From Lentibacter sp. (GTDB lineage: Bacteria > Pseudomonadota > Alphaproteobacteria > Rhodobacterales > Rhodobacteraceae): a DNA stretch of 64,000 bases. Shown here piece after piece: positions 2,241 through 53,022 of the stretch (position 1 is the first letter of the stretch; each line of letters begins with the position of its first letter). The stretch lies in contig JADGEJ010000009.1 in assembly GCA_016744435.1 (NCBI GenBank), positions 620 to 64,619 of the forward strand. The letters are read 5' to 3'. The notes beneath the pieces are model-generated. The model had not been told where the DNA came from, did not search any database, and saw nothing but the letters and a program-made list of their open reading frames with translations. A program made the position numbers and the translations under genes.

Positions 2241-2258
2241 TGTTTCCCTAGTCCTTTC

Positions 2259-3581: not shown

Positions 3582-3592
3582 AGCGCGTCTCC

Positions 3593-11157: not shown

Positions 11158-11739
11158 TCAAACGATCTGGATATTGTCTGTGATCGTGTCGAGGCCAAGG
11201 TAGATCGTGATGTCGATGGTGTTGCCGCCGCCGAAGTCGAGGAAGACGTTGGTGTCGGTCACGGTGCCGTAAGTGTTGAGCACTTGCTGGCCTGTCGTTG
11301 CCGAGCCTACGAGTGCGCTTGAGAGCTCCAAGATGTCGTGCCGGCCTTCGAAGTCGCCGATCGTGTCGTGGCCGTGGCCTGCTGCGAAAATGAAGGTGTC
11401 GATCAGGCTGCCGCCGTAGATTTCGTCGTTGCCAGTGCCTGCGTCAATCGTGTCGTGGCCTTGCGAACTATAGATCGTGTCATTGCCCGCGCCGCCGCTG
11501 ATGTAGTCACTGCCTGTCGCGCCTGAGAGGTAGTCGTTGCCATTGCCGCCGTAGAGATCATCCTGGCCTTCGGAGCCAAGCAGGCTGTCGTCGCCGTCGC
11601 CGCCATACAATGTGTCCCAGCCGGTGCGGCCAATGATGTAGTCATCGCCGTCTTCGCCGTAGACGACATCAACGCCGTTGCCCGAACTGATCCAGTCGCC
11701 GCCATCGCCACCGTAGATCAGATCAACGCCAGTGTTGCC
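11158..11739 (-). repeat. Left arm of a large inverted repeat (core); partner at 33252-33833
   Basis: The last 193 codons of this gene and of the 853-aa RTX gene differ at only 9 residues in my manual alignment. The same mirror shows up in shadow ORFs (11338-11526 vs 33465-33653). Similarity decays to about 80% nt over a further 250 bp or so. Confidence 0.85.
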
Positions 11740-13142: not shown

Positions 13143-13220
13143 GATTTGGGGCGGGTCCGTAAGGTATCGTGAGGATGGACAAGGTTAGGTGATGCCGAAC
13201 CTTTGCAACCGGAGAACCCT

Positions 13221-14371: not shown

Positions 14372-16150
14372 GTGAGTTTTGTGAAGGTATATTTGGACAA
14401 GCCTCAAAATTTTTGGGCCAATCTTTCAGTCGATTTCCAAGAACACCGTGAGGTGTTTCGCAACATGCTTGAGGCGATGATGTTGGCCGGGCACGACTTG
14501 AGTGTCTTCCAACGCCGCCCTTATATCGAACGAGGGCTTGAGGCGGGTTTTGCCGATGGTATCTACTATTCCTATCACAATGCGCAGCCCGGCGAAAACA
14601 GCTATTGCTACAAGCGCGGCCCTTTCCCGTACCTTTGGTATATGGATCCTGCGGGCTATGCGGGCTGGAGCCAGATAGCTTTGGACACCTCCCTACAGGA
14701 AGAAGCCGCGCAGTATCCTGTGGAGAAAGCCACTGCCGTTGTCCAGGAATACTGCCGCCGCATGCTGACGGAGAACCACTCTGTTTTGCCTCAGCCTGAA
14801 ACCATTCCGGAGGCCGAGATTGAAGGTCTGGAAAGCTTTGTTTTCTATTCTCTTCAAGTCAACAATGACGAAGTCATGAAGCTGACAGAAGTCGCGCAGT
14901 ACGAGAGCATTAAAGCTGCGGCGGCTGCGGCCAAGAAAATGAAACGCCACCTTGTTTTCAAACAACATCCTTTGTGCAAATCATCCGTTGTTGCACGGCT
15001 GTTGGGCGAGTTGGCGAAGTCAAAATATGTTCATGTCAGCGTTGGCTCAGTGAACAAGCTGCTCAGCAAAGCGCGCAGTGTCTTGGTTACCAATTCAACT
15101 GTCGGCTTTCAGGCGCTCGTTCTTGGCAAGCCCGTGTTCACAGTGGGTAAGAGCGAATATAGCTTCATGACCCAGCCAATTCAGACGCCAGAAGAGATTG
15201 CTGAGGTTTTCCGCGTTACTGACTTCAGGCAGCCGGAGCGTGTTTTGCGCCAAATCGGCTATTTGCTAAGTGAGTACTTTGTCGACATGCGCGACCCTCA
15301 AAGGCTGGGCGCGCGGCTGCAAGAGCATGCTGCAGTGTTTGCCCGGAAAAACAACAACACCCAAAGCCGGTTTCAAGCCGAGGAGTTGGACAGTTACAAA
15401 ATCTACCTCACGGCAGCACACCGACTGGAAAAAGAAACACATGAGCGCCTTGAGTTTTTGCTGGAAAGCTACAGCGCGCTCACCCCTCCAGAAAAGCCAG
15501 CTATTGTAGCGGCGCTTTCGAATTTTGTGTCGCACGGGCACTTTGTCGAAAAAATCCTGAGAAGCACCGATGGGGAAGTTGCCCTACGCAGCCTGAAGCT
15601 TGTCGACAAACGCAAAGACAGCCTCAAGAAAGACCAAATTTTGCGGGCGCTCTGCGACATCAAAACCAGTGCAAGCGCCAAAGTGTTCTATGACCGAAGC
15701 AGAGAGTATTACGCCGCAGGCGACGAATTCGAGGGCTTGAGGTTTGCGCGCTTGGCGGCGAGCCACCCTAAGGCCTCTACAAATGCCAGTGTGTTTTGCG
15801 CTCGCAAGTTGCTGTCAGCGAGCAACTACGACAACCCGGAGCTGCGGCTGCTAATCCAAGGCCTTGCGGGGCATTCGACAAGCAATACGTGGCTTATGAA
15901 ACTCCGGTTTGGCCTTGCGCTACACGACAACGAGCTCGAGCGCGCGGCTGAGGTTTTGAAAGTAGCGTCGCGAGACGCATGGGACAAAAGCGAAGCTGAG
16001 TTGCATCGTAAGCAACTTCAGAAACGGCTTAAGCCGCCAGCGCCCACCGCCAAAGCGCGGCCGGTTGCGAAACCCAAGCCCGCAGCCAAGCCGAAAGCGG
16101 CGGCTACGCCAAGCCCAGACGCACCGAAGAAGCGACAGAAGTCGCATTGA
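14372..16150 (+). CDS. Capsule_synth (KpsS/KpsC, GT107-like) domain protein with a helical C-terminal extension and a Lys/Pro/Ala-rich tail
   Basis: YMDPAGYAGWSQIA and HLVFKQHPL...VLVTNSTVGFQALVLGKPVFTVGKSEY match the capsule biosynthesis (LipB/KpsS) pattern. The C-terminal 39 aa are KPPAPTAKARPVAKPKPAAKPKAAATP.... The GTG start is uncertain. Confidence 0.6.
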   Translation: MSFVKVYLDKPQNFWANLSVDFQEHREVFRNMLEAMMLAGHDLSVFQRRPYIERGLEAGFADGIYYSYHNAQPGENSYCYKRGPFPYLWYMDPAGYAGWSQIALDTSLQEEAAQYPVEKATAVVQEYCRRMLTENHSVLPQPETIPEAEIEGLESFVFYSLQVNNDEVMKLTEVAQYESIKAAAAAAKKMKRHLVFKQHPLCKSSVVARLLGELAKSKYVHVSVGSVNKLLSKARSVLVTNSTVGFQALVLGKPVFTVGKSEYSFMTQPIQTPEEIAEVFRVTDFRQPERVLRQIGYLLSEYFVDMRDPQRLGARLQEHAAVFARKNNNTQSRFQAEELDSYKIYLTAAHRLEKETHERLEFLLESYSALTPPEKPAIVAALSNFVSHGHFVEKILRSTDGEVALRSLKLVDKRKDSLKKDQILRALCDIKTSASAKVFYDRSREYYAAGDEFEGLRFARLAASHPKASTNASVFCARKLLSASNYDNPELRLLIQGLAGHSTSNTWLMKLRFGLALHDNELERAAEVLKVASRDAWDKSEAELHRKQLQKRLKPPAPTAKARPVAKPKPAAKPKAAATPSPDAPKKRQKSH

Positions 16151-16211
16151 TGCGGGTTTGCCAGCCCTGATCCCCGCACGAGCTCAGGGCGGATCATGGC
16201 TCAGTTTTCAA

Positions 16212-19200
16212 CTAGGATTTCGTCGTAAACGCGCTCTTGGAGCTGCGCGCTTTCCCCCGAACACCAACATATTTCTCATGCCCGGGCTCGAACCGCTCGC
16301 CCAAGGCCCGCCCAACCAGCTCGCTTAAAGACGGGTTTGCTTTTTTGGCATGCGCCTTGAGGTCATCTTTGAACCAATAGGGTGGATAGATCACCTTGTT
16401 GGTCACGGGGCGGGCGTGAAAACGGTAGGGTTGAGTGAAGTCGTCATTGGCCATGTAGTCCAGCCAAACAGCTGCGCGTTCGCGAAAGTCAGGCGCAGGG
16501 ATCACAGGCTTCTCGCCGCGTAGATAAGCTTCGTATTCTTGGCGGCTTTCTAGCTCTACCTGCCCGATGGGGTAATCCACCGGAGCAAAATGACCGGCTG
16601 TAATACACGGGATACCCATCAGTCCCAGTTCGATCGTGGTCGTCCCATTGTAGACTAGGCCCATGTCGATCCGGTGGCGCATATCATCCATGTCAAACCA
16701 GCGGTGGCCCATGAAAATGGCATTGTCGCCCAGTGGTTCTTCCAGCAAGTCGCTGAAATATTCTGTGGGGAAGGTCGCGATCTGGTTGTTCAGCTCATGA
16801 GGGTGCGGCTTGATCAGCAGCAAGGTATTGGTGCCCTGTACTGACCGAATTGAATGATTGATCCAATCTTTCATACTGCTGTGCCCCGGCCCCCCGTCAA
16901 AAGGTACAGAGCTGTCACAGACAACCTTGCCAAAGGCGCAGGCGACTTTGCCACCTTTTGCACGCCACTGGGTGATGCGCTCATCCAACGCCTGTGCCTC
17001 GGCAGGGCGATCATCGCTGCCCTCGGTAGACCGACGCACCTTCGTGATCGGCGCAAAGCGCTTGATGATCTGTGGCAACTGTTTTTGATGGCTGTCATAG
17101 TAGCGCTCAAAGTTTTCGGGCAAGGGAAAACTGCCTGAGCGCGCATGCGGACTGCGTGTCATGTTGCGCATAACCAACCGCTGCGAGATGTTGGTAGAGA
17201 AGTTGGTGAAATAGTTCTGATAGCCATTGGCTGTGTGCAAATAGAAGAACTTTTCCGGATCACCGTATTCTTCGCAATAAAAGCGGAACAATGAATCAGG
17301 TAGGCGACAGTTGTAGAGAGAAACCAAACCCACCTTGAGGTTCTCGGACTTATGCAGCGCCAGAGTGTAATCCAACACCCGCGCCATCGAATGCGTCCAA
17401 TCAGAGAGCGTGCCCAGATATCTCTGCAACTCGGGGCAACCGTGGTTGAGCGAGTAGCGGCGGCGGTTGATGGCGCCGTCTTCCCAGACAGAATGCGACA
17501 GGTCAATAGGGCCCCATGTCAGGCGCCCACGGTCTAACTCCGGAACGTAGTTCTTGACTTGCGGCATGGCCTTTTCTGCCCGTGCCACAAGCGAAACTAC
17601 AGGGCTGATCGCGCCATTGATGACATCGATTTTTGGGTTGCCTGTTTGCTCGCGCGGCAACAACCCTTCGACCATTGGCAGCACGGCCCAGCCGCGACGC
17701 TTGAACTCCAACAGGGCCATCAGCGGATAGCGGCGCAACTGGTCGATATTGCGCGGCGCTACAAGGATAATCCCCTTTGGGTTTTTCGGCTGCGGCACGG
17801 ATTTGTAGATATTCGCCGTTTCGATCAGGAATTTCAGCTCGCCGTAGCGTTTGATCAGGCTGTGGTTGGAAAATGCGTTGATCCTGCTGGGGTTGGCGAG
17901 GCTTTGCCCGTGCACATCTTCCAGCAGGCGCAGCGCGTGGCCAAACTTGCCTTGGCGTTGCAGAATATTGACATAGTGCAACAGCCCCTGACGGCGGAGC
18001 AGGTTTTTGGGCAAGACATCAAAGAAGTCATTGGCCTTTTTGTAATTGTGGGTCAGCGAGGCCCAGCGGAAGAAATGCTGCATGTCACGGTTGATGCGAG
18101 GAGGGTTGCTCGACGCAACTTCCATGATCCGAGCCGCCGCTTTCATGTTCTTGGTGGTATGGGCCAAGGCAGCTGGAGCAGGCCACAGTGCATGTGCCAG
18201 TTCTGGTTGGGCACTGAGCGCCTCAAGATATGCCGTGATCCGCTGTGTCAGATCACTGCGACCAAGCCGATGTGCCAGAGGCAAATAGGCACACAGATCA
18301 ATCACGGTTTGCTCTGCAAGCTTGAGGGTTTTCACGCCAGCAGGGTCGAACAAGGCTTCAAAGCGCTCTTCGTAAGCGCGTAGCTGCGTGGCGGCGCGCT
18401 CGTACGACTGAGTGTAGTCGGGGATATGCCGGATGCCGGTGCGCAACATGCTGGCAATGATGTTGATCTGGGCGAGCGGCTTCGTGGCCGCGTTGAGTTC
18501 CGTGTCACAGATATCAAGATACTGATCGCGTTGGCGCGATTGCAGTGCTTTTTCCTTAAAGGAAGTTTGCAGTTTCGCTGGGGCGGCGGCATCTTCGCTG
18601 AGAATGTCTTGGGGCTGCGCCTCGTTCGGCGCGGTTGTCTTTACCTTGCCATTTACGGCGTCAAGCAAGGTACCAGAGTTGACGCGTTCGCGTTCGCGCT
18701 CTCGATCCTGAGGGTTGGACGTTTCTTGTGTGTCGTCTGTCCAGTCCATCTGTTCGCGGGCGATCAGATCCAGCACCCGCCAGGACTGCTGGAGGATCAG
18801 CATACGGCGTTTTTGCAAATCTTCGGGGGCATCATAGGGGTTCTCGATCGTTTCGATCAGCAGCTCACTAGCACCGCGATAATCTCCCTGCATACCGCGG
18901 CAGATTGTGATCAAATGGACAAGAAAAACGCTCTCGTGGAACCGCTTGTTTGCCTCGATGGCCGCTTCGAGCAACGTCTTGCGGCCCTCTTCGCTGATCA
19001 GCAATTGAGAAATCAGACGCCCCGCTTGAAACTGTCCAGCGCGCTGGGTGCGCTCCAGTTCGGCCATGTTTTTGAGCAGCCCGACATAATTTTTCGACCG
19101 GATGTGTGGAACCATAAGGCTGCGCAACCGCTCAGTTCTGTAGAGCGCGGCCTGCTCTTCATTGCCCAAAGCTTCGTAAGCTAGTGTCCGAGCGCGGGCC

Positions 19201-19376
19201 ACTTGCTGTGTCTTGGGCTTATTGAGCTCTGCAACTTTCAGAACCTTCAAAGCCAGCGACGGCATCTTGGCGCGGATGAGCAAATTGCTCCATTTGAGAG
19301 GCCTGTGGTGGCCCAGCCTACGGACCGCCTTGCGCGCCAAGGAGCGAGTTTTTATCTGTTGAAATGTCTTATTCAT
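16212..19376 (-). CDS. Giant (1054 aa) protein: N-terminal TPR-like helical region of about 450 aa plus a C-terminal Capsule_synth/GT-B-like domain
   Basis: The C-terminal pattern (FGKVVCDSSVPFDGGPGHSS ... LLLIKPHPHE ... GLVYNGTTTIELGLMGIPCITAG) resembles KpsC/KpsS-type transferases. It starts 24 nt after the pseI stop on the same strand, so it is probably co-transcribed. Local GC is lower (about 45-53% in the stretches I counted). Confidence 0.55.
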   Translation of the reverse strand: MNKTFQQIKTRSLARKAVRRLGHHRPLKWSNLLIRAKMPSLALKVLKVAELNKPKTQQVARARTLAYEALGNEEQAALYRTERLRSLMVPHIRSKNYVGLLKNMAELERTQRAGQFQAGRLISQLLISEEGRKTLLEAAIEANKRFHESVFLVHLITICRGMQGDYRGASELLIETIENPYDAPEDLQKRRMLILQQSWRVLDLIAREQMDWTDDTQETSNPQDRERERERVNSGTLLDAVNGKVKTTAPNEAQPQDILSEDAAAPAKLQTSFKEKALQSRQRDQYLDICDTELNAATKPLAQINIIASMLRTGIRHIPDYTQSYERAATQLRAYEERFEALFDPAGVKTLKLAEQTVIDLCAYLPLAHRLGRSDLTQRITAYLEALSAQPELAHALWPAPAALAHTTKNMKAAARIMEVASSNPPRINRDMQHFFRWASLTHNYKKANDFFDVLPKNLLRRQGLLHYVNILQRQGKFGHALRLLEDVHGQSLANPSRINAFSNHSLIKRYGELKFLIETANIYKSVPQPKNPKGIILVAPRNIDQLRRYPLMALLEFKRRGWAVLPMVEGLLPREQTGNPKIDVINGAISPVVSLVARAEKAMPQVKNYVPELDRGRLTWGPIDLSHSVWEDGAINRRRYSLNHGCPELQRYLGTLSDWTHSMARVLDYTLALHKSENLKVGLVSLYNCRLPDSLFRFYCEEYGDPEKFFYLHTANGYQNYFTNFSTNISQRLVMRNMTRSPHARSGSFPLPENFERYYDSHQKQLPQIIKRFAPITKVRRSTEGSDDRPAEAQALDERITQWRAKGGKVACAFGKVVCDSSVPFDGGPGHSSMKDWINHSIRSVQGTNTLLLIKPHPHELNNQIATFPTEYFSDLLEEPLGDNAIFMGHRWFDMDDMRHRIDMGLVYNGTTTIELGLMGIPCITAGHFAPVDYPIGQVELESRQEYEAYLRGEKPVIPAPDFRERAAVWLDYMANDDFTQPYRFHARPVTNKVIYPPYWFKDDLKAHAKKANPSLSELVGRALGERFEPGHEKYVGVRGKARSSKSAFTTKS

Positions 19377-19400: not shown

Positions 19401-20480
19401 TCAAATCGAGTCAGGGTCCGCGTCCAGAAGTTCCCAACTCATTGGAGTACCTTTGGTTACATCGCGCCCTACACGTCGGCCAATTAGTGCATCAAAATAC
19501 TTCGGCGCTAAGCCAAGGCCAGGGCGAATACGGCGCAAATTCGCCGCAGTGAGTACGTCACCTTGTTTCATGTCTTCGCCGATGTAAAGAGAACGGCGCT
19601 TTTTGCGGCCCGCTTGTTCTGACGCTGTTCCGCCAAACCAGATCTGGCCGAGCGACTGTGCAGCGCGTGTTGTTTCGACAACCAGCTGGGTGAATTCGTC
19701 AGGCTCAAGCGAGAACGCGCTGTCAACGCCGCCTTCGGAGCGGTCGATGATGAAGTGCTTCTCGATCACACTGCCGCCGAGTGCTGTTGCGGCCACGGCC
19801 ACGCCGCAGCCCATGGTGTGGTCTGACAGGCCGTAGTTGACGCCAAAGGTGTTGCCGATCACCGGCATTGTCACAAGGTTGGTGTTTTCTGGCGTCGCCG
19901 GATAGCTTGAAGTGCACTTCAGCAACGTGAGGTTTTTGCAGCCAGCACTGAGCGCCGTTTCAACCGCTTCGCCTATCTCGACAATGCTTGCCATGCCAGT
20001 AGAGATGATCATCGGCTTACCAGTCTGCGCAACGCGGCGCACCAGCGGCAGATCAACTGTTTCAAACGAGGCGATCTTATAGGCCGGCGCATCAAGGCTT
20101 TCGAGCAAGTCAACGGCATCTTCCGAGAACGGCGATGAAAACGCCAAGATGCCCTTTTCTTTCGCGCGATCAAAGATCGGCTTGTGCCACTCGGCGGGCG
20201 TCATCGCGATCTGGTAAAGCTCATAGAGGTTGCGGCCATACCAAAGCGACTTCGGGTCAGTAATGGTAAACTCACCTTCCTTCAGATCAAGCGTCATGCT
20301 GTCTGGCGTGAATGTCTGGATTTTGATCGCGTCAGCACCTGTGGCTGCCGCTGCATCAACAATAGCTAAAGCGCGCTCAAGCGACTGGTTATGATTGCCC
20401 GACATCTCGGCGATGATGAAAGGTGTGCCATCATCTTTGAGGGCGTGGGTTTTTGCCAGTTCCTGTCTCAGTGTCAGCAT
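19401..20480 (-). CDS. pseI: Pseudaminic acid synthase (NeuB family with a C-terminal SAF domain)
   Basis: FIIAEMSGNHNQSLERALAIVDAAAATGADAIKIQTF and the C-terminal SAF-like LYIGEDMKQGDVLTAANLRRIRPG. It is the last biosynthetic gene of the pse operon. Confidence 0.8.
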   Translation of the reverse strand: MLTLRQELAKTHALKDDGTPFIIAEMSGNHNQSLERALAIVDAAAATGADAIKIQTFTPDSMTLDLKEGEFTITDPKSLWYGRNLYELYQIAMTPAEWHKPIFDRAKEKGILAFSSPFSEDAVDLLESLDAPAYKIASFETVDLPLVRRVAQTGKPMIISTGMASIVEIGEAVETALSAGCKNLTLLKCTSSYPATPENTNLVTMPVIGNTFGVNYGLSDHTMGCGVAVAATALGGSVIEKHFIIDRSEGGVDSAFSLEPDEFTQLVVETTRAAQSLGQIWFGGTASEQAGRKKRRSLYIGEDMKQGDVLTAANLRRIRPGLGLAPKYFDALIGRRVGRDVTKGTPMSWELLDADPDSI

Positions 20481-20485
20481 CGTCT

Positions 20486-21409
20486 TCAGGCCTTCTTGTT
20501 GGAATTATCTGCAGTTTCGCGCAGGTCTTGCAGGCCAGCGCGCAAATCAAGCTTCGGGGTCCAGCCTAGCATCTTGCTGGCAAGATTAACATCCATAGCT
20601 GTATGCGGCATAGGGGTGTCGCTGTCAGTGTCGTAGCGTATGTTGCCTGCGTTGCCGAACACCTCGTTGGTTGTCTCGGCGATCTGGCCGATAGACCAAG
20701 CCGTGCCGCCACCAACGTTCACGGGGCCCTGCGCGTCAGTACTTTGCAGCGCGGCTAATATGGCCGAGGTGGCGTCGCGCACATAGAGCTGGTCAATCCG
20801 GTAGTCGGGGTTGCCTGTCAGCACGATCGTTTCGCGCGCCTGCGCCTGACCGATGAATTTCATCATCGCGGGCGTACCCTTTTCGCCGTGGCCATAGACA
20901 GCGGCAAACCGCAGTGAAACCTGCGCTGGGCCACGCGTGCGCGTCAGCATTTCAAGGTGCTGCTCGGCCATGAGTTTGGACAAGGCATAGGCGTTGATAG
21001 GGCGCTCAGGCGCGTCCTCGCGGTAGGGCAGACCAGACGCTGGAGAGTAGACAGCGATCGTCGAAGCAAAGACAATCTTGCGCACCCCGGCCTCGCGCGC
21101 GGCATTCACCAAATCAGCAATCATCGCGACATTGGGTTGCCAGAACGGGCCGATATCCATCGGCGCGTCTTCCCGCGTCATGCGGCGCCCTGCAAGGTGC
21201 ACAACCGCGTCGGCACCCTCAAAGGCCTCTACGAGGCTGGCGAAGCTGTAGTCTGTCTGGCGTGCTTGCGGGCCGATGGGAGCCGAGCGACCAATGCTGA
21301 CGCAACTATAGCCCGCAGCGTGCAGATCATCGCGCAGATAACGGCCGATAAACCCGCCTGCGCCGGTGACAGCGACGGTGCCAGTCGTTATGCCAGCGGC
21401 ATCGCTCAT
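20486..21409 (-). CDS. NAD-dependent epimerase/dehydratase (extended SDR)
   Basis: Rossmann motif VTGAGGFIGRYL and catalytic YALSK. It has a 4-nt overlap with the upstream ATP-grasp gene. Confidence 0.8.
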   Translation of the reverse strand: MSDAAGITTGTVAVTGAGGFIGRYLRDDLHAAGYSCVSIGRSAPIGPQARQTDYSFASLVEAFEGADAVVHLAGRRMTREDAPMDIGPFWQPNVAMIADLVNAAREAGVRKIVFASTIAVYSPASGLPYREDAPERPINAYALSKLMAEQHLEMLTRTRGPAQVSLRFAAVYGHGEKGTPAMMKFIGQAQARETIVLTGNPDYRIDQLYVRDATSAILAALQSTDAQGPVNVGGGTAWSIGQIAETTNEVFGNAGNIRYDTDSDTPMPHTAMDVNLASKMLGWTPKLDLRAGLQDLRETADNSNKKA

Positions 21410-22536
21410 GCGCGTTTCCTGACGTAATAGCCGATCACTTCCAGTGTGCCGTTCACAGCGCGGACTGTCTCGCCCGCTTCGTAGCGGTATTCGTGATAGC
21501 TCGCGTCCTCCGGTGCGGGAAAGATGCTTGGCTCGAACGCGGTATCAGGTGGCACTTGCTGAAACATCAGCTCGTGAATGCCTTCCTGCAAGGTGCCCTC
21601 AGCGGCATTTGGCAATGTCGGCACATCGGCGGCACCTGTGAGGCAGTTCACGGCCATTTCAATCAGATCAGCGCCAGTGGTTGCTTTGATCAAACGCCAC
21701 ATGTGGCAGCCGTCAAGCCGAGGAGCGATCTCGATGATGCGCGGGCCTTCTGGCGTGACGATCATCTGGAAGTAAAGCACCCCGTCGCGCGCGCCCATTG
21801 CGGCGATCACGCCATCAACCAGCTCAAGAGCGGCACGTTGGTTTGCAGGTGAAACATTCTCGGTCGGCACCAAGTGCCCAACCGGAACACCCAGCGCATG
21901 CGGGCCGTGGACCAAACGCTCGGAGAGAACTTTGAGGCGTGTCTTGCCACCGCAAACGAGCACGTTGCACGAAATTTCGACACCCTCGAGAAAGCCTTCT
22001 ACGATCGCTTGTTTTGAGTGCGAAAAGCCAAGCGCGTTGTTCACGGCGACTTCGATATCTTCAGGGCGATCAACCCGCACAACCCCGCGCTGACCCTGGC
22101 CATCGGTGGGTTTGACGATGCACGGAAAATGCGCCCATTCGCTGGCTTCATCTGCGGCGGCGATCTGGATGAATGGCACGGGCGAGAGCTTGTTCTCGTG
22201 CAGAAACGCGCGGAAAGCGGCTTTGTTGTCGAGCAGATCAATAAAGGCACTGTCGTAGAAATGCGGCAGGCCAAGCCGCTCTGAAAGAGCCACGACCGAG
22301 CGCATCGCGACATCAGAGGAAATCGAGTACACAAGGTCAACGGCGTGGCGCTTGGCAACCTCTTCCAGCGCGTCCAGATCAACGATGTTGACAGCTTCGA
22401 CGACATCACAAAACGCTTGTCCGGACTCGCCAGCAACGGGGGAACAGCCGATCACAAACCAGCCCAGGTCTTTCATGTGGCGGATCAAGTCGGCTTGGCC
22501 GGCGTTGGTGCCGAGAATAAGGATCTTCTTTGTCAT
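21406..22536 (-). CDS. ATP-grasp domain ligase
   Basis: 376 aa with PCIVKPTDGQGQRGV, EGFLEGVEISCNVL and IIEIAPRLDG, which fit an ATP-grasp fold. It has 4-nt overlaps with pseG upstream and the SDR downstream. Confidence 0.75.
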   Translation of the reverse strand: MTKKILILGTNAGQADLIRHMKDLGWFVIGCSPVAGESGQAFCDVVEAVNIVDLDALEEVAKRHAVDLVYSISSDVAMRSVVALSERLGLPHFYDSAFIDLLDNKAAFRAFLHENKLSPVPFIQIAAADEASEWAHFPCIVKPTDGQGQRGVVRVDRPEDIEVAVNNALGFSHSKQAIVEGFLEGVEISCNVLVCGGKTRLKVLSERLVHGPHALGVPVGHLVPTENVSPANQRAALELVDGVIAAMGARDGVLYFQMIVTPEGPRIIEIAPRLDGCHMWRLIKATTGADLIEMAVNCLTGAADVPTLPNAAEGTLQEGIHELMFQQVPPDTAFEPSIFPAPEDASYHEYRYEAGETVRAVNGTLEVIGYYVRKRA

Positions 22537-23582
22537 ACTGTCTCTCTTTCTAGCAAGGCATCCACAAGGCGCGTAGTGCCTTTTCCGTCAACAACTGCGC
22601 AGCCCTTGGCGGCCATCTGCGCACGTGCGGCTTCATCGTTTATCATCTTGTGTGTCGCCTTTAAAAGCTGCGCGCGCGACACGTCTTCAAACTGGCCAAG
22701 ATAGGATGCTCCTGTCAGGTCTTGCCAGCCAAGGCAAGGGCGCTGCTGATTGCCAGCGAGGCCCAAAAACAGGGTTGGCAAACCGCAAGCCGCGGCTTCA
22801 TAGCTCATCGTGCCGCCGCCGATAATGCACATATCACAGCCAAGCATCAGCTCGACAAGGTTCTGCGGCGCGACGTGCAACTCGGCAGCACCTTCAGGCA
22901 GCGCGGCGATCATCTCGGCAATGCTATCGCGGCGCGGATTGCTCGGGCCAGACACAACAACCAGCGTCACATCAGAGCCAATTTGCCCGGCAAGTGATGT
23001 TAGCACATTGCTGATAGCGCCACGGTCGTCACCGCCGCCAAAGGACACCAGTATGCGCCGAACTGCCCGCCCGTGGGGGCGCAGTTTCAAGCCGTTGAAC
23101 GCTGGCCGCAGCACTGCATAGGCGGGGCCAAACAGCGTTTGGGTGTGCGCCGCGTCTTCAAGCCATTGCAAATATTGCTCACGCCGCTCAAACGGGCTGG
23201 CGTTGACCAGAATATCGCAACTGAACGGCCAAGGCGCGCTGGCATCAAATTGCTGCATCCAGCGGATGCCTGCACCACGCAGAAGATGCTGATATTCAGG
23301 GTCAGTACGGTAGTCATCCATGATAACATGCCGCGCACTGGCTTCTGCACAGGCCTGCAATACGCGCGCGGCGTCATCTTGCGATGTGCCGCGCTCGGGC
23401 ACGGGCTGCCAGCTTTGAAAAAGTGTGCTGTCTTCGGGCTGCTTGAGGCTTTCTGGCGGGCCGATGATATGAGCGTCATGGCCCGTCTCACCCAAGTGCC
23501 GTGCGATCTCGCGGCAGCGCATCAGGTGGCCGATGCCAACTGTCGGGCTGACATTGCAGCGCATGACAACCGGGCCGCTCAC
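22533..23582 (-). CDS. pseG: UDP-2,4-diacetamido-2,4,6-trideoxy-beta-L-altropyranose hydrolase
   Basis: N-terminal MRCNVSPTVGIGHLMRCREIARHL and a C-terminal GT28-like region (GGGTMSYEAAACGLP). It sits in the position expected between pseF and pseH/pseI. Confidence 0.75.
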   Translation of the reverse strand: MSGPVVMRCNVSPTVGIGHLMRCREIARHLGETGHDAHIIGPPESLKQPEDSTLFQSWQPVPERGTSQDDAARVLQACAEASARHVIMDDYRTDPEYQHLLRGAGIRWMQQFDASAPWPFSCDILVNASPFERREQYLQWLEDAAHTQTLFGPAYAVLRPAFNGLKLRPHGRAVRRILVSFGGGDDRGAISNVLTSLAGQIGSDVTLVVVSGPSNPRRDSIAEMIAALPEGAAELHVAPQNLVELMLGCDMCIIGGGTMSYEAAACGLPTLFLGLAGNQQRPCLGWQDLTGASYLGQFEDVSRAQLLKATHKMINDEAARAQMAAKGCAVVDGKGTTRLVDALLERETV

Positions 23583-24286
23583 CCCAAGGAACCTTTTGAG
23601 CGCAGAACTTCGAACAGGGCCTCGGCGAGGCTCCAGTCGTCAGGCGTGTCGATATCGACAGCACGCTCACGCGGCATCAGAAAGGGCAGGGATTGCGGCG
23701 AGAACATTGGCTGCTCGCTCACAAAGGCATCGCGCTTTCCCCAATAAAACATGCCGACGTCATGGAAGGCTTCCGGCAGGTCTTGCGTGCGCGTGCTGCG
23801 GTGCTCGGGAAACAGCATTTCGACGCCGCCATCTTTGGCGCGGGTCATGGCTCGCTGCACTGGATGAGCATATTCGGCGGCGGCAAATGCAAAGTGTTTG
23901 CTCTCGTCTTGCATCAGGGCCGCACGCGCTTGGAGTAGGTCAGCAGCCGTCGCGAAGGCAGCTGTCGCATAGACCGTGCACACCATTTCGACAGTTTGCC
24001 CGTGGCGCTTTTCCGCATCCAAAATAGCATGGTTGATAACCCCACGCGCCGGGCTCATGTCGTCAGACAGTTCGGCAGGGCGCATAAACGGAACGCTGGC
24101 TCCGGCTGCGCGCGCCACATCAGCGATCTCTGCGTCATCCGTTGAAACGATAACCTCATCAAACACCCCCGCTTCCAAAGCGGCAGCGATTGGCCAGCCG
24201 ATCATGGAGCGACCAGCAAATGGAATAACGTTTTTGCGGGGGATACGTTTGGAGCCGCCACGCGCGGGAATGATCGCGATTTGCAT
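23579..24286 (-). CDS. pseF: Pseudaminic acid cytidylyltransferase (CMP-NulO synthetase family)
   Basis: MQIAIIPARGGSKRIPRKN. I chose the ATG at 24286 because a GAGG RBS lies upstream; the ORF track starts 12 codons earlier. Confidence 0.8.
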   Translation of the reverse strand: MQIAIIPARGGSKRIPRKNVIPFAGRSMIGWPIAAALEAGVFDEVIVSTDDAEIADVARAAGASVPFMRPAELSDDMSPARGVINHAILDAEKRHGQTVEMVCTVYATAAFATAADLLQARAALMQDESKHFAFAAAEYAHPVQRAMTRAKDGGVEMLFPEHRSTRTQDLPEAFHDVGMFYWGKRDAFVSEQPMFSPQSLPFLMPRERAVDIDTPDDWSLAEALFEVLRSKGSLG

Positions 24287-24340
24287 AGTCAAGCCTCGGT
24301 TCTGCGAGAGGCCGACGGGCATGCCGCGCCGGCCATTTCG

Positions 24341-26505
<2,165 letters not shown>

Positions 26506-28248: not shown

Positions 28249-29064
28249 CTATTTGAGCAACATTGACTGGCCGTAACGATACAGCATGAGAAAACCAAAG
28301 AACATTGGAACTAGCGCTAGAAAAATCACAAACGAGACCATCGGATATTGCGGGTCATAAGTTGCGTAAAAGCCTTCACGTGACATCCCGACAACATGAA
28401 CGATCGGATTGAACCAAAGCAGATCCTGGATCGCGCGGGGCAGGTCTTCAAAGGTGTAAAACACGCCTGACACCAGCATCAAAGGGCGCGTTGCCACGCC
28501 CCAAAGTGACTTCCAGATCGGAAATGAAAAGAAGGCATATGCGTTGAACACTCCAAAGCCGAAGCCCAGAAAGGCGCTGAGTGCAAATGCCAGAAAGACA
28601 GGCCCAAAATCTACGCTCTCCTGAATGCCTTGCTGCAGGTAAATGCCTGTGAGGATGATCGCGCAGACCATAATCTGCGTCAGAATCGCCAGCAACGCAC
28701 GCGCCACGACAACATCAACCAGCGTTACGCGCGGGTAGCCTAACAGCGCCAAATTAAAGGCAATTGAATTGCCAACATTTGCGGAAACTTCCTGAAACAT
28801 CCTCAAAGGCAGCAGGCCTGTCGCGTAAAACATTAGAAAACTCGTGCCAAGCGAAGGTGCGCGCAGCAAAAGCGAAAACCCAAGCGCCAGCACCAGGATT
28901 GTGCCGACAGGCTGCAACACCGCCCAGACATAGCCACCTGGTGAGCGGCCATAAGTTGTCGACATCTCGCGCAAAATAAGTGCCGCAACAGTGCGGGCCA
29001 TGGGGAACCGCAGATCAGGTGTTTGCGGGCGGGCGGGCCGGTCTGGTTCTTTCGCTACGTCCAT
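28249..29064 (-). CDS. kpsM: Capsule/polysaccharide ABC-2 exporter permease
   Basis: 271 aa with about 6 TM in an ABC-2 pattern. It is divergent from kpsE-kpsT. Confidence 0.8.
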   Translation of the reverse strand: MDVAKEPDRPARPQTPDLRFPMARTVAALILREMSTTYGRSPGGYVWAVLQPVGTILVLALGFSLLLRAPSLGTSFLMFYATGLLPLRMFQEVSANVGNSIAFNLALLGYPRVTLVDVVVARALLAILTQIMVCAIILTGIYLQQGIQESVDFGPVFLAFALSAFLGFGFGVFNAYAFFSFPIWKSLWGVATRPLMLVSGVFYTFEDLPRAIQDLLWFNPIVHVVGMSREGFYATYDPQYPMVSFVIFLALVPMFFGFLMLYRYGQSMLLK

Positions 29065-29136
29065 CTTTACTAGAATTCCTGCCAGAGATATGTGATCATC
29101 ACTTAGTTATCATATACATGGGCGTGGACCAAACAC

Positions 29137-30471
29137 TTGGCCGATAATCAAAAAACACCCGAGCAGTCTCAAACACCTTCTGCAGTCGAGAGCAAGCCAG
29201 TACCTGCTCCAGAGGCACCCAAGGCACCGGAGCCAAAGCCCGTTCTTGCGGTGCCTGCCTCCGCTGTGAAGCCCGCAACTGCAGCCAAGCCGGCCCCCGC
29301 CAAGCCTGTGCCCGCAAAGCCAGCCCCTGCCAAGATTGATATCGCTCCGACAGTGGCGCCCGCCCGCCCAAAGCGCAGGCATGTCATGTTGCTTGTCAGC
29401 TTCTTGGTGTTGGTGTTGCTTCCGGCAGCCATTTTCGCGGGATACCTCTGGATAAAGGCGGTTGATCAGTACGCCTCTAACGTGGGCTTTACTGTGCGCC
29501 GCGAAGAAGCGCCAACCGCTGTTGATCTGATCGGCGGGCTAAGCAACCTGTCCTCCTCAAGCTCGTCAGACAGTGACGTGCTTTACGAGTTTATCCAGTC
29601 TCAGGAGCTGATTCAGCAAATTGACGACAAGCTTGATCTGCGCAAGATTTATTCCGAGCATCACTCCGGAGATCCGCTGTTCACCCTTAAGGAAGGCAGT
29701 AACATCGAGGAGCTTTTGCAATACTGGAAGCGCATGGTTCAGATTTCCTATGCACCGGGCACCGGCCTTATCCAGATCAAGGCACTCGCTTTTACGCCGC
29801 AAGATGCGCAAAACATCTCTACCGAGATATTTGAGAAAAGCTTGGTGATGATCAACGAGCTGTCGGCAGTCGCGCGCAACGACACGATGCGCTATGCCAC
29901 TGAAGAGCTTGATCTCGCGATCATACAGCTCAAAGAAGCTCGTCAAGCGCTGACGCGGTTTCGCTCAGTGAACCAGATCGTCAACCCGACAGCCGACATT
30001 CAAGTTCAGATGGGGTTGCTCACGACACTTCAACAGCAACTTGGCGAAGAGCTGATCACCTTTGATTTGCTCAAGGAGAACATCAAAGACAGCGATCCGC
30101 GACTTGTGCAATCTGAGCTCAAGATCAAGGCGATCAGAGCCCGGATCACAGAAGAGCGGCTGAAGCTTGGCACCGGTGGTTCAACGATCAGCGGCGAGAG
30201 CTATGCAACGCTTTTTGCTGATTTCGAGCGCCTGTCGATAGACCGTGAGTTTGCCGAGCAGAAATATACCGGAGCCTTGTCAAACCTTGACAGCGCCCGC
30301 GCCGATGCGCGCCGCCAGAACCGTTATCTCGCTGCGTTTATTCGCCCGACATTGCCTGAAAGTGCCGAGTATCCACGCCGCTTGCTTGTGCTGGCGGTGG
30401 CCACGTTCTTCCTGTTGGCGGCTTGGAGCATTCTCGCCCTGATCTATTACTCGCTGCGTGACCGCCGCTAA
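29137..30471 (+). CDS. kpsE: Capsule export inner-membrane (PCP-3, KpsE-like) protein with a Pro/Ala/Lys-rich N-terminal extension
   Basis: TM helix, then YASNVGFTVRRE, a long coiled-coil region, and a C-terminal TM (the KpsE/RkpR pattern). The TTG start at 29137 is uncertain; in-frame GTG codons and the ATG at about 29383 are alternatives. Confidence 0.7.
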   Translation: MADNQKTPEQSQTPSAVESKPVPAPEAPKAPEPKPVLAVPASAVKPATAAKPAPAKPVPAKPAPAKIDIAPTVAPARPKRRHVMLLVSFLVLVLLPAAIFAGYLWIKAVDQYASNVGFTVRREEAPTAVDLIGGLSNLSSSSSSDSDVLYEFIQSQELIQQIDDKLDLRKIYSEHHSGDPLFTLKEGSNIEELLQYWKRMVQISYAPGTGLIQIKALAFTPQDAQNISTEIFEKSLVMINELSAVARNDTMRYATEELDLAIIQLKEARQALTRFRSVNQIVNPTADIQVQMGLLTTLQQQLGEELITFDLLKENIKDSDPRLVQSELKIKAIRARITEERLKLGTGGSTISGESYATLFADFERLSIDREFAEQKYTGALSNLDSARADARRQNRYLAAFIRPTLPESAEYPRRLLVLAVATFFLLAAWSILALIYYSLRDRR

Positions 30472-30480
30472 AGGTTTCTG

Positions 30481-31161
30481 ATGATCAAGCTGGAAAATGT
30501 CACCAAGAGCTTTGCAACCCCGCGCGGCCCGAAATATGTCGCGCGCAACATCAATGCGGTGTTTCCAAAGGGGCAGGCCGTTGCCTTGATGGGCCGCAAT
30601 GGCGCGGGCAAAAGCACCATGCTCCAGATGATGTCAGGGCGCACACCGCCTGACCAAGGCAGCATTATCGCGGAAGGCTCGGTTTCGTTTCCCGTGGGTT
30701 TTGCCGGTACGTTTCACCGCGACCTGACAGGCGCGCAGAACACTCGGTTTATCGCGCGCATTTACGGCGTTGACACCGACGAGCTGATGGAGTTCGTCGC
30801 CGACTTTGCCGAACTGGGCGGGCATTTTCACATGCCAATTCGCAGCTATTCCTCCGGAATGCGCTCGCGGCTGGCCTTCGGCATTTCGATGGGCATCCAC
30901 TTTGATACTTACCTCGTTGATGAGGTGACATCCGTTGGCGACCAAAGCTTTCGCAACAAAAGCGCGGCTGTCTTTCGGGCACGGCTCGAGCATTCGAGCG
31001 CCATTGTTGTCAGCCACTCTCTCGCCGAAATGCGCAACCTTTGCACCTCGGGCGCAGTGCTTGAGAACGGCGAACTCACGTTCTTTGACAAGGTAAACGA
31101 CGCCATCGCGCAGCACGTCGAGAACATGCAGCAACCGATTAAAGCCATCCTAAAACCTTAA
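30481..31161 (+). CDS. kpsT: Capsule export ABC transporter ATP-binding protein
   Basis: Walker A GRNGAGKST, signature YSSGMRSRLAF, Walker B YLVDEV. Confidence 0.88.
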   Translation: MIKLENVTKSFATPRGPKYVARNINAVFPKGQAVALMGRNGAGKSTMLQMMSGRTPPDQGSIIAEGSVSFPVGFAGTFHRDLTGAQNTRFIARIYGVDTDELMEFVADFAELGGHFHMPIRSYSSGMRSRLAFGISMGIHFDTYLVDEVTSVGDQSFRNKSAAVFRARLEHSSAIVVSHSLAEMRNLCTSGAVLENGELTFFDKVNDAIAQHVENMQQPIKAILKP

Positions 31162-33833: not shown

Positions 33834-33890
33834 GGGGCAAAGCGCAGAATGGTCCTTGCCTTTCGCACGCTCCGCGCAAATTGTGGGCCT

Positions 33891-35312: not shown

Positions 35313-35320
35313 GCTGGTGG

Positions 35321-37975: not shown

Positions 37976-37978
37976 TAT

Positions 37979-38764: not shown

Positions 38765-38780
38765 AGGATGTTCCGGCAGA

Positions 38781-39872: not shown

Positions 39873-39873
39873 C

Positions 39874-53019: not shown

Positions 53020-53022
53020 GTC

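What the first reader, a model, noticed from the sequence alone, without database searches (positions are those of the whole stretch)
14372..19376. Two oversized Capsule_synth (KpsC/KpsS-like) proteins fused to TPR-like helical regions, one co-transcribed with pseI: candidate CMP-Pse polymerases
Seen in sequence: a 1054-aa ORF (about 450 aa of TPR-like helices plus a C-terminal KpsS/KpsC-like GT-B domain) starts 24 nt after pseI on the same strand. A convergent 592-aa ORF has the same catalytic-domain pattern plus a helical/basic tail. No canonical-size kpsC or kpsS, and no kdsB/kpsU/kpsF, is visible. Established knowledge: KpsC/KpsS (GT107) use CMP-beta-Kdo, an ulosonic-acid donor chemically close to CMP-Pse and CMP-Neu5Ac. 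Inference: these enlarged homologs may have been recruited to transfer or polymerise nonulosonic acids. The TPR part could act as a scaffold or chain-length ruler. The architecture does not match textbook group-2 capsule proteins.
Basis: partly seen in the sequence, partly recalled or inferred. Interest (0 to 1): 0.7.

Follow-up and report, generated by a model that had tools for sequence, protein, structure and literature searches.

The report
Candidate pseudaminic-acid capsule transferase pair
Two large soluble enzymes beside a pseudaminic-acid sugar operon in a marine alphaproteobacterial capsule locus are probably the transferases that build that sugar into the capsule, and the larger one carries an unannotated catalytic domain that sits next to pseudaminic-acid genes in many bacterial phyla.

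Summary
Both ORFs exist exactly as described. The 592-aa protein is a divergent Capsule_synth (GT107-like) enzyme followed by TPR-like helices and a very basic tail. The 1054-aa protein starts 24 nt after pseI. It has a roughly 520-aa TPR-like solenoid and a roughly 500-aa GT-B domain ("CD"). CD has no Pfam, NCBIfam or PDB sequence match. A diversified profile-profile comparison links CD to Capsule_synth (92% probability, E=6e-7). That alignment places an invariant KxxxD/KPHP signature on the QxxxD/HP signature of KpsC-type retaining ulosonic-acid transferases.

CD is a widespread modular domain, found in 431 clusters at 50% identity. In 40 of 56 well-flanked loci from Proteobacteria, Actinomycetota, Firmicutes and Acidobacteriota, at least three kinds of pse genes lie within 10 kb. 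No locus has flagellin nearby. CD is often fused as Capsule_synth–TPR–CD, for example in a Sinorhizobium rkp-3-like locus. The window also encodes KpsM, KpsE and KpsT.

Best reading: the 1054-aa protein is a CMP-Pse-dependent transferase of an uncharacterised family, working with the 592-aa module in K-antigen-type capsule synthesis. Polymerase activity, the acceptor, a TPR "ruler" role and the 592-aa protein's donor remain untested. KpsS1 (GT118) is already a precedent for a Pse transferase in this superfamily.

The parts
16212..19376 (-). 1054-aa soluble protein (X1054): TPR-like solenoid plus a GT-B catalytic domain (CD). Candidate CMP-Pse transferase.
   Evidence: ORF confirmed. No Pfam, NCBIfam or PDB sequence hit. 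AF2 pLDDT 80.6. No TM segment. 30 full-length homologs at 50-74% identity, all named 'hypothetical'.
17805..19376 (-). X1054 residues 1-524: all-helical TPR-like solenoid. A low-confidence acidic linker at residues 210-272 corresponds to nt 18561-18749.
   Evidence: DSSP and pLDDT of the model. Foldseek matches SPY/OGT TPRs, Tom70 and Naa15. No Pfam TPR hit.
16287..17804 (-). X1054 residues 525-1030: CD, a GT-B-like domain of an unannotated family that is remotely related to Capsule_synth.
   Evidence: 431 representative clusters. hhalign against Capsule_synth gives prob 92%, E=6.3e-7. Controls: reversed profile 0.1%, PseB/PseC 0.2%, PseG 45%. Foldseek finds KpsC 8fux/8fuw (prob 1.0, TMt 0.5) and generic GT-B folds.
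16914..16928 (-). K817-V-V-C-D821. D821 is the putative nucleophile, aligned with the QxxxD motif of Capsule_synth/KpsC.
   Evidence: hhalign alignment. D821 is conserved in 99% of 121 diverse CDs. In the 6mgd KpsC alignment the family QxxxD lies on GQVESD, whose Asp I infer from numbering to correspond to E. coli KpsC D160, the residue mutated in the Kdo-adduct entry 8fuw.
16794..16811 (-). K856-P-H-P-H-E861: the 'HP' motif of the nucleotide-binding half.
   Evidence: K856, P857, H858, P859 and E861 are conserved in 96-100% of 121 CDs. The motif aligns with K197-Q-H-P200 of X592.
14372..16150 (+). 592-aa soluble protein (X592): divergent Capsule_synth/GT107-like domain (about residues 1-320), TPR-like helices (about 330-545) and a basic Pro/Lys/Ala tail (546-592). 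The probable true start is GTG 14381.
14855..14869 (+). Q162-V-N-N-D166: QxxxD motif of X592.
   Evidence: Invariant in the family alignment A2. Aligned to GQVESD of KpsC 6mgd.
14960..14971 (+). K197-Q-H-P200: HP motif of X592.
   Evidence: Invariant in A2. Aligned to KvHP of KpsC.
19401..26493 (-). Pse operon upstream of X1054. Genes: pseB 25492-26493, pseC 24341-25495, pseF 23579-24322, pseG 22533-23582, ATP-grasp 21406-22536, SDR 20486-21409, pseI 19401-20480.
   Evidence: NCBIfam equivalogs are all above cutoff for PseB/C/F/G/I. Pfam hits.
28249..31161 (.). Capsule ABC-export genes: kpsM-like 28249-29064 (-), kpsE/ctrB/bexC-family 29137-30471 (+), kpsT/wzt-like ATPase 30481-31161 (+).
   Evidence: KpsE family E=8e-63; KpsM E=1e-28.

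Best explanation
The two genes encode the locus-specific ulosonic-acid glycosyltransferases of an ABC-transporter-dependent (group-2 / rhizobial K-antigen-like) capsule.

X1054 is cytoplasmic. Its C-terminal GT-B domain (CD) binds the CMP-activated pseudaminic-acid derivative made by the operon immediately upstream. It transfers the sugar to the growing glycan, probably by the retaining double-displacement chemistry of KpsC/WbbB-type enzymes, with Asp821 as nucleophile and the KPHP motif holding CMP. Its N-terminal TPR-like solenoid serves assembly or partner binding.

X592 is a second, more conventional Capsule_synth-type ulosonic-acid transferase module with its own TPR region and a basic tail. 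It works with X1054, as the two domain types do when fused as Capsule_synth-TPR-CD in other bacteria.

Shown: ORFs, domain folds, motifs, remote homology, gene neighbourhood, fusions. Inferred: donor (CMP-Pse), catalytic residues, mechanism, cooperation of the two proteins. Open: polymerase versus single addition, acceptor, linkage.
For: (1) Position. X1054 starts 24 nt after pseI on the same strand, at the end of pseB-pseC-pseF-pseG-ATPgrasp-SDR-pseI.

(2) Neighbourhood. The public-genome scan gave 77 loci, and 81 loci in all were analysed. Of 56 loci with at least 5 kb on both sides, 40 carry at least 3 kinds of pse genes within 10 kb. 24 have a pse gene within 300 bp, and in 16 of these it is pseI. 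PseB hits are 50-72% identical even in Actinomycetota and Firmicutes loci.

(3) Catalytic signature. D821, G829, H832, K856-P-H-P859, E861, N885, D904 and E916 are each conserved in 96-100% of 121 CDs that share 22-57% identity.

(4) Remote homology. CD versus the Capsule_synth profile gives prob 92%, E=6.3e-7 over 152 columns. KxxxD aligns to QxxxD and KPHP to KQHP, and the controls are far lower. By numbering, the QxxxD Asp corresponds to KpsC D160, the residue mutated in the Kdo-adduct structure 8fuw.

(5) Fold. The model is GT-B. KpsC, OGT/SPY and a TPR-containing capsule multienzyme (8qoy) are among the matches.

(6) Fusions and co-occurrence. S. americanum has a 1360-aa protein with Capsule_synth (E=8e-44), TPR and CD (E=4e-71 to X1054), directly upstream of pseB..pseI and kpsE/T/M-like genes. 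33 of 150 representatives combine Capsule_synth and CD. A separate Capsule_synth gene sits in the same operon in Psychrobacter and Rhizobium herbae.

(7) Capsule export. KpsM/E/T are in the window. KpsM/T/E/D lie beside the homolog in Brevundimonas, with few other GT candidates.

(8) Precedent. KpsS1 (GT118) is a retaining Pse transferase related to GT107/GT99 (PMC12887879).
Against: There is no biochemical datum for any family member.

The CD-Capsule_synth link is remote. Pfam, NCBIfam and PDB HMM searches find nothing. The first hhalign with shallow alignments failed. The domain-only model (pLDDT 68) matches generic GT-B enzymes better than KpsC. Q of QxxxD is K in CD.

16 of 56 well-flanked CD loci lack a pse cluster nearby. 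Only 16 of 81 loci have a Capsule_synth partner within 10 kb.

The window locus also has two GT2s, a GT42-like sialyltransferase, a DUF6716 putative GT and a second ulosonic-acid pathway. The glycan is therefore probably complex, and Pse could be a side or terminal residue rather than polymerised.

Classic Pse K-antigen strains (S. meliloti Rm41) show no CD homolog on their replicons. KpsD and canonical KpsC/KpsS were not seen in the window.
Confidence: 0.6

Rival explanations
1. X1054 is a protein O-glycosyltransferase of the FlmG/OGT type. The TPR solenoid would bind a protein substrate (flagellin, an RTX or S-layer-like protein) and the GT-B domain would decorate it with Pse.
For: TPR-N plus GT-B-C is exactly the FlmG architecture, in which the TPR binds flagellin and the GT-B sets Pse/Leg specificity (PMC7591256; bioRxiv 10.1101/2022.03.25.485807). 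The best whole-model Foldseek hits are the protein glycosyltransferases SPY and OGT (E=1e-7 to 2e-5). Two RTX proteins flank the locus in the window, and RTX853-like genes occur in 5 related loci.
Against: None of 81 loci has a flagellin gene within 10 kb, and the window has no flagellar genes. KpsT/E/M-type exporters recur next to the gene. CD is fused to RkpZ-like Capsule_synth domains. CD (about 500 aa) is much larger than the roughly 280-aa FlmG C-terminal domain. The SPY/OGT hits have TM 0.15 and are driven by the TPR repeats. No FlmG-named protein appeared among 199 profile hits, of which the best 120 were listed.
Confidence: 0.1
2. X592, possibly together with X1054, is the functional equivalent of KpsS/KpsC. 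It would use CMP-Kdo to build the conserved beta-Kdo lipid linker that primes export, and would not handle Pse at all.
For: X592 is a Pfam Capsule_synth member whose profile hits KpsC (E=7e-8). Group-2 systems need KpsS and KpsC, and none of canonical size is in the window. KpsC itself has two tandem GT107 modules, like the Capsule_synth-TPR-CD fusions. The basic tail could bind anionic lipid.
Against: X592 scores 27.7 bits against the KpsS equivalog, whose cutoff is 600, and only its C-terminal half matches PF05159. CD tracks pse genes rather than kps genes, including in Gram-positive phyla that lack KpsMT-type capsules. Canonical kpsC/kpsS could lie outside the 64-kb window.
Confidence: 0.2
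3. X1054 adds a single Pse, as a side branch or a chain-terminating cap like the WbbB GT99 Kdo terminator, rather than polymerising. This is a variant of the best explanation, not an exclusive alternative.
For: Relatives in this superfamily include single-addition enzymes: KpsS, WbbB GT99 and KpsS1 (PMC12887879). The window locus has at least four other GT candidates. The Psychrobacter homolog lies in a locus ending galU-pgi, a layout that, from my recollection, resembles the Wzy-type K loci of the related genus Acinetobacter.
Against: Brevundimonas and Mesorhizobium loci contain pse genes, X1054 and kpsMTE(D), with very few other GT candidates. The two-module fusions resemble bifunctional polymerases.
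Confidence: 0.3
4. CD is a GT-B-fold enzyme that is not a transferase, for example a nucleotide-sugar hydrolase or epimerase acting in Pse metabolism (as with PseG or UDP-GlcNAc 2-epimerases).
For: The domain-only Foldseek search ranks UDP-GlcNAc 2-epimerases high (E about 1e-5). hhalign gives 45% probability to PseG over 46 columns.
Against: The operon already has a complete set of PseB/C/G/I/F. The similarity to Capsule_synth is longer and stronger (152 columns, 92%). Fusion to TPR and to a second transferase module, and the roughly 500-aa size with a conserved acceptor-side half, fit a transferase.
Confidence: 0.05

Closest known systems
KpsC / KpsS (CAZy GT107, Pfam Capsule_synth PF05159), the beta-Kdo transferases of group 2/3 capsules
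   Same: X592 is a Pfam member with QxxxD and HP motifs. CD of X1054 aligns to the same nucleotide-binding half with an invariant Asp and KPHP. The donors are CMP-ulosonic acids. The context is a capsule locus with KpsM/E/T. Two-module arrangements exist: KpsC N and C modules versus Capsule_synth-TPR-CD.
   Different: X1054 is invisible to PF05159 and to PDB HMM searches. Its first motif is KxxxD, not QxxxD. CD is about 500 aa, against about 320. Both proteins carry TPR-like regions that KpsC/KpsS lack. X592 is far below the KpsS equivalog cutoff. The genomic linkage is to Pse genes, not Kdo genes.
KpsS1 of Acinetobacter baumannii (GT118), a retaining Pse5Ac7Ac transferase
   Same: It shows that a KpsS-like enzyme can use CMP-Pse. 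It is encoded beside pse genes in a capsule locus. This is the function predicted here.
   Different: KpsS1 is a single-domain, KpsS-sized enzyme that is reportedly 30% identical to E. coli KpsS (PMC12887879), so it is readily recognised. CD is not recognisable in this way. KpsS1 has no TPR and acts in a Wzy-type locus.
RkpZ and the rkp-3 K-antigen region of Sinorhizobium
   Same: The gene content is the same: pseB..pseI (rkpL-Q) plus kpsE/M/T (rkpR/S/T) plus a Capsule_synth protein. The N-terminus of the S. americanum 1360-aa fusion is 53% identical to the Rm41 RkpZ region.
   Different: Rm41 itself has no CD homolog. The window proteins are split, and X592 is much more divergent than RkpZ.
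FlmG (Caulobacter/Brevundimonas flagellin Pse/Leg transferase)
   Same: N-terminal TPR plus C-terminal GT-B. Soluble. The donor is a CMP-nonulosonic acid.
   Different: FlmG is 596 aa and acts on flagellin. Here there is no flagellar linkage, the catalytic domain is much larger, and the context is capsule export. Homology was not tested.
TPR-containing multi-enzyme group-2 capsule polymerases (e.g. A. pleuropneumoniae serotype 3 enzyme, PDB 8qoy) and TagF/TarL
   Same: Large soluble capsule enzymes that combine GT-B-type catalytic modules with a TPR scaffold. Foldseek E=1.4e-4 (full model) and 2e-4 (domain only).
   Different: Those enzymes are, to my knowledge, TagF-like phosphotransferases that use CDP-polyol donors. 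No sequence similarity was detected.

Membership tests
Pfam Capsule_synth (PF05159) / CAZy GT107 | Significant match to the family HMM above the gathering score | tested here: met
   This row is for X592: 50.5 bits against a cutoff of 20, E=2.7e-13, but only HMM positions 134-269 of 310. The family profile hits KpsC structures at E=7e-8.
Pfam Capsule_synth (PF05159) / CAZy GT107 | Significant match to the family HMM (X1054) | tested here: not met
   No Pfam or NCBIfam family at E<=0.01. No PDB hit with the single sequence or with two profiles. Only hhalign with diversified profiles gives prob 92%, E=6.3e-7 (controls).
Retaining ulosonic-acid transferase superfamily (GT99/GT107/GT118/GT140) | Asp nucleophile in a QxxxD-type motif plus an HP motif in the nucleotide-binding half | tested here: met
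   X592 has Q162xxxD166 and H199-P200, invariant in A2 and aligned to KpsC. X1054 has K817xxxD821 and K856-P-H-P859, conserved in 90-100% of 121 CDs (K817 90%, D821 99%) and aligned to the X592 motifs. The catalytic role itself is inferred.
Retaining ulosonic-acid transferase superfamily (GT99/GT107/GT118/GT140) | KpsC/WbbB-like GT-B fold | tested here: inconclusive
   The full-length model hits KpsC 8fux/8fuw (prob 1.0, E=5e-3, TMt 0.47-0.50). The lower-confidence domain-only model matches generic GT-B enzymes best.
KpsS (NCBIfam NF050054 equivalog) | Score above the equivalog cutoff | tested here: not met
   X592 scores 27.7 bits against a cutoff of 600. X1054 has no hit.
GT118 (KpsS1 Pse transferase) | Sequence relationship to KpsS1, and transfer of Pse from CMP-Pse | not tested
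The activity is not testable in silico. Only the genomic linkage to pse genes was tested.
FlmG-type flagellin glycosyltransferase | TPR N-domain plus GT-B C-domain | tested here: met
   AF2 model and Foldseek results.
FlmG-type flagellin glycosyltransferase | Association with flagellin or flagellar genes as substrate context | tested here: not met
   None of 81 loci has a flagellin hit. No flagellar genes are in the window.
Group-2 / K-antigen (ABC-transporter-dependent) capsule locus | KpsM, KpsT and KpsE homologs adjacent to serotype-specific biosynthesis genes | tested here: met
   Window 28249-31161. The same arrangement occurs in Brevundimonas, Mesorhizobium and Hyphomicrobiaceae loci.
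Group-2 / K-antigen (ABC-transporter-dependent) capsule locus | KpsD outer-membrane exporter and canonical KpsC/KpsS | tested here: not met
   None among the window ORFs scanned. They may lie outside the 64 kb. KpsD is present in the Brevundimonas locus L028.

The most novel reading that the evidence does not exclude
CD founds a new, CAZy-level glycosyltransferase family of dedicated pseudaminic-acid transferases or polymerases. This family would be a fifth deep branch of the retaining ulosonic-acid transferase superfamily, spread across Proteobacteria, Actinomycetota, Firmicutes, Acidobacteriota and Campylobacterota. The Capsule_synth-TPR-CD proteins, and split pairs such as X592 plus X1054, would be self-contained two-module polymerases. 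These would make Pse-containing K-antigens in Gram-negatives and possibly Pse-containing wall polymers (teichulosonic acids) in Gram-positives.
Probability: 0.4. Interest if true: 0.75.

Novelty: new variant of a known kind. Interest (0 to 1): 0.6.

Why it matters
Pseudaminic acid decorates capsules, O-antigens, flagella and pili of many pathogens and symbionts. Very few enzymes that transfer it are known (Maf, FlmG, KpsS1), and this limits glycoengineering, vaccine glycan synthesis and inhibitor design.

This locus points to an unannotated domain family of hundreds of clusters, named 'hypothetical protein' almost everywhere. Its invariant catalytic signature and cross-phylum linkage to pse genes make it a directly testable candidate for the missing Pse transferase or polymerase of K-antigen-type capsules. 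It would also extend the recently recognised superfamily of retaining ulosonic-acid transferases (GT99/107/118/140) and explain how such modules are combined through TPR scaffolds.

If the prediction fails, the result is still a better annotation of a marine Rhodobacterales capsule locus.

Tried and rejected
(1) Direct family searches on X1054 (Pfam, NCBIfam, PDB phmmer, PDB hmmsearch with close and with diverse CD profiles) found nothing.

(2) A first hhalign of the shallow family alignments A1 and A2 found no catalytic-domain match. The link appeared only after diversifying both profiles, so controls were run.

(3) The RkpY lead was tested. I suspected the S. meliloti Rm41 rkpY product might be the homolog. 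However, Rm41 pSymB matches only the RkpZ-like N-terminus of the S. americanum fusion and has no CD. The paper is not held. The lead was dropped.

(4) The 'gene fission' idea was that the helical regions of X592 and X1054 correspond to the two halves of the linker in fused proteins. hhalign probabilities were 0.7-19%, so it is not supported.

(5) A domain-only structure prediction to sharpen the fold assignment gave lower confidence (pLDDT 68) and only generic GT-B neighbours.

(6) Flagellin or FlmG context was sought. No flagellin was found in 81 loci, and no FlmG-named hits appeared. No FlmG sequence was available for direct comparison.

(7) RTX proteins as possible acceptors: co-occurrence is weak (5 of 81 loci), and the N-terminal part of the 853-aa RTX protein has no recognisable relative.

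(8) Source names for family members: nearly all are 'hypothetical protein', with a few automatic 'Capsule polysaccharide biosynthesis', 'TPR repeat protein' or 'methyltransferase' labels.

(9) Literature searches for this family, for pseudaminyltransferases, for capsule polymerases with Pse, for Roseobacter Pse and for teichulosonic acids turned up no characterised member.

Full report
**Observation.**
The gene upstream of X1054 is pseI (TIGR03586, E=7e-143). It closes a run of pseB, pseC, pseF, pseG, an ATP-grasp enzyme, an SDR and pseI, and all five Pse enzymes score above the NCBIfam equivalog cutoffs. The pseI stop and the X1054 ATG are separated by 24 nt, and no terminator-like site lies in that gap. 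X592 and X1054 converge with a 61-nt gap. Neither protein has a predicted membrane segment.

**Wider context.**
- The window (55-60% GC) carries kpsM-like (28249-29064), kpsE/ctrB/bexC-family (29137-30471, E=8e-63) and kpsT/wzt-like (30481-31161) genes.
- It also has two GT2 enzymes, a methyltransferase and manC.
- A second ulosonic-acid pathway is present: a NeuB without a SAF domain, an AGE-type 2-epimerase, and a cytidylyltransferase fused to a KdsC/KDN-9-P-phosphatase-like domain.
- A CST-I/GT42-like sialyltransferase and a DUF6716 putative GT lie alongside that pathway.
- There are no flagellar genes, no KpsD, and no canonical KpsC/KpsS among the ORFs scanned.
- This is an ABC-transporter-dependent capsule locus of the kind known as rkp-3 in Sinorhizobium (PMC4881576). 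Homologs place it in the Roseobacter group of Rhodobacterales.

**X592.**
- Pfam Capsule_synth matches residues 143-266 (E=2.7e-13, above gathering). The KpsS equivalog scores 27.7 bits against a cutoff of 600.
- A profile of its small family hits KpsC structures (E=7e-8), WbbB GT99 (3e-5) and, for residues about 330-545, designed TPR proteins.
- Q162xxxD166 and K197-Q-H-P200 are invariant. They lie on the GQVESD and KPHP motifs of the KpsC 6mgd chain. By numbering, that Asp corresponds to E. coli KpsC D160, the residue mutated in the Kdo-adduct entry 8fuw.
- The last 47 residues are Pro/Lys/Ala-rich, with 15 K/R and 1 D/E.
- Homolog N-termini (MKFYLDKP) show that the public 556-aa gene call is too short. 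The likely start is GTG 14381.

**X1054.**
- No Pfam, NCBIfam or PDB sequence match was found. Thirty full-length homologs (50-74% identity) are all 'hypothetical' with no precomputed Pfam domain.
- The AF2 model built on that alignment (pLDDT 80.6, pTM 0.78) shows a helical solenoid at 1-524, with a disordered acidic insert at 210-272, and an alpha/beta domain at 535-1030.
- Foldseek returns TPR+GT-B enzymes (SPY, OGT; E=1e-7 to 1e-5, low TM), a TPR-containing capsule multienzyme (8qoy) and KpsC (8fux/8fuw; prob 1.0, E=5e-3, TMt about 0.5).
- A domain-only model was less confident (pLDDT 68) and matched generic GT-B enzymes.

**The C-terminal domain is a modular family.**
- An exhaustive profile search found 431 clusters (at 50% identity) with E<=1e-3.
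- Beyond the close family, the match is to profile positions of about 485-1000, at the C-terminus of proteins of 550-2645 aa.
- Among the 150 best, 33 also carry an N-terminal Capsule_synth-like domain (about 28 convincingly, typically about 1300 aa: Capsule_synth-TPR-CD). 26 have the window-type N-domain, and 86 have other or no N-terminal regions.
- A 121-sequence CD profile against a 28-sequence Capsule_synth profile gives hhalign probability 92%, E=6.3e-7 over 152 columns (X1054 768-935 against X592 114-271). K817xxxD821 superposes on Q162xxxD166, and KPHP on KQHP.
- Controls: reversed profile 0.1%, PseB and PseC 0.2%, and PseG (another GT-B) 45% over 46 columns.
- D821, G829, H832, K856, P857, H858, P859, E861, N885, D904 and E916 are each conserved in 96-100% of the 121 CDs.
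- CD is therefore best described as a deeply divergent relative of the retaining ulosonic-acid transferases. It keeps their catalytic signature but falls outside the current Pfam model.

**Comparative genomics.**
- A scan of one genome per species returned 77 loci.
- Full-length relatives occur in Rhodobacterales, Rhizobiales, Brevundimonas and Psychrobacter.
- CD-only relatives occur in Halomonas, Vibrio, Microbulbifer, Sulfurimonas, Acidobacteriota, Actinomycetota and Erysipelotrichales/Clostridiales.
- Of the 56 loci with at least 5 kb on both sides, 40 have at least three kinds of pse genes within 10 kb. 24 have a pse gene within 300 bp, and in 16 of these it is pseI.
- The PseB hits are 50-72% identical to the window PseB even in Gram-positive loci.
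- No locus has a flagellin gene. KpsT-like, KpsE-like and KpsM-like genes occur in 26, 13 and 8 loci.
- In S. americanum CCGM7, a 1360-aa protein combines Capsule_synth (E=8e-44), a TPR region and CD (E=4e-71 to X1054). It lies directly upstream of pseB..pseI and opposite kpsE/T/M-like genes.
- In Psychrobacter the operon reads pse genes, X1054 homolog, two unknowns (one a TPR protein), GSCFA, PhyH, a 371-aa Capsule_synth protein, galU and pgi.
- In Rhizobium herbae an X592-like gene flanks the pse/X1054 operon.
- In Brevundimonas the locus holds wecB/wecC, pse genes, X1054, kpsM/T/E/D and almost no other GT candidate.
- In Aquicoccus and Roseovarius, a second X1054 paralog (39% identical) takes the convergent position that X592 holds in the window.

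**Interpretation.**
- The evidence supports X1054 as a CMP-Pse-dependent glycosyltransferase acting in capsule (K-antigen-type) synthesis. X592 is a second ulosonic-acid transferase module that functions with it.
- The mechanism is inferred by analogy with KpsC/WbbB: double displacement via D821, with CMP bound by the HP motif.
- Whether X1054 polymerises or adds one residue, what the acceptor is, and what X592 transfers (Kdo, Pse or the second ulosonic acid) remain open.
- The TPR regions are real, but their role as scaffold or ruler is untested. They show no significant similarity to each other or to the linkers of the fused proteins.
- The main rival is a FlmG/OGT-like protein glycosyltransferase. 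It shares the architecture but has no supporting genomic context.
- A KpsS/KpsC-surrogate role is plausible only for X592.

**Comparison with the known.**
KpsS1 of A. baumannii is a retaining Pse transferase (GT118) related to GT107/GT99, and KrkA (GT140) shows that further deeply divergent members exist (PMC12887879).
- What is new here is the CD family itself, its cross-phylum linkage to pse genes, and its recurrent fusion to Capsule_synth and TPR modules.
- I found no paper on it in the held library. Source annotations are almost all 'hypothetical protein'. I could not check CAZy or paywalled literature.

**Verdict.**
This is a new variant of a known kind, and its interest (0.6) rests on a directly testable candidate family of Pse transferases.

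Noticed in passing
window 20486-22536 (-): The pse operon has no PseH-type N-acetyltransferase. An ATP-grasp ligase and an SDR sit between pseG and pseI instead. These two genes co-occur with the full-length X1054 subfamily in 36-40 of 81 loci, but not with distant CD-only relatives. This suggests an unusual N-acyl pseudaminic-acid derivative as the donor.
   Followed up: partly
window 33849-41763: A second ulosonic-acid pathway lies in the same locus. It comprises manC, a DUF6716 putative GT, a cytidylyltransferase fused to a KdsC/KDN-9-P-phosphatase-like domain, a CST-I/GT42-like sialyltransferase, an AGE 2-epimerase, a NeuB lacking the SAF domain, and a GT2. It is possibly Kdn or Neu5Ac.
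   Followed up: partly
window 31272-33833 (+) and 11158-12972 (-): Two RTX-repeat proteins flank the locus. The 853-aa one sits inside the same-strand run kpsE-kpsT-RTX-manC, and its N-terminal roughly 480 aa has no Pfam or PDB relative. Similar genes occur in 5 related loci.
   Followed up: partly
window 13203-14189 (+): A DUF2793 protein lies immediately upstream of X592. DUF2793-like genes recur in 5 related loci (L005, L007, L036, L053, L063).
   Followed up: no
window 14372-14482: The public gene call for X592 (556 aa, from M37) cuts off a conserved N-terminus. Homologs begin MKFYLDKP, which matches a GTG start at 14381 preceded by AGGTGA.
   Followed up: yes
L001 12937-17203; L003 12937-17153; L029 13734-14891: In Aquicoccus and Roseovarius, two X1054 paralogs (39% identical) lie convergently with a roughly 390-aa protein between them. 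That protein has a GxSxG-like N-terminal motif and C-terminal TPRs, and it recurs in 13 loci, including Psychrobacter.
   Followed up: partly
proteins P0067 (2645 aa), P0071 (2561 aa), P0080 (2077 aa), P0046 (1332 aa): CD also ends giant proteins. P0067 (2645 aa) has no Pfam match and P0080 (2077 aa) only a weak TPR hit; P0071 (2561 aa) was not scanned. P0046 (1332 aa) is named a SAM-dependent methyltransferase by NCBI. These may be multi-module glycan synthases.
   Followed up: no
window 45484-48636 (+); 48879-59335; 1452-4159: Unrelated neighbours: a Type ISP restriction-modification enzyme (1050 aa), a TonB-dependent haem uptake cluster, and cytochrome bc1 genes.
   Followed up: no
L066, L067, L069, L074, L078, L080 (Actinomycetota); L068, L070-L073, L075, L076 (Firmicutes): CD homologs of about 670-1110 aa lie beside pseB/pseC/pseI in about nine of these Gram-positive genome loci (the rest, mostly short-flanked, show none). 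From my own recollection, some actinomycete cell walls contain Pse-bearing teichulosonic acids, so these could be their synthases. The held literature did not confirm this.
   Followed up: no
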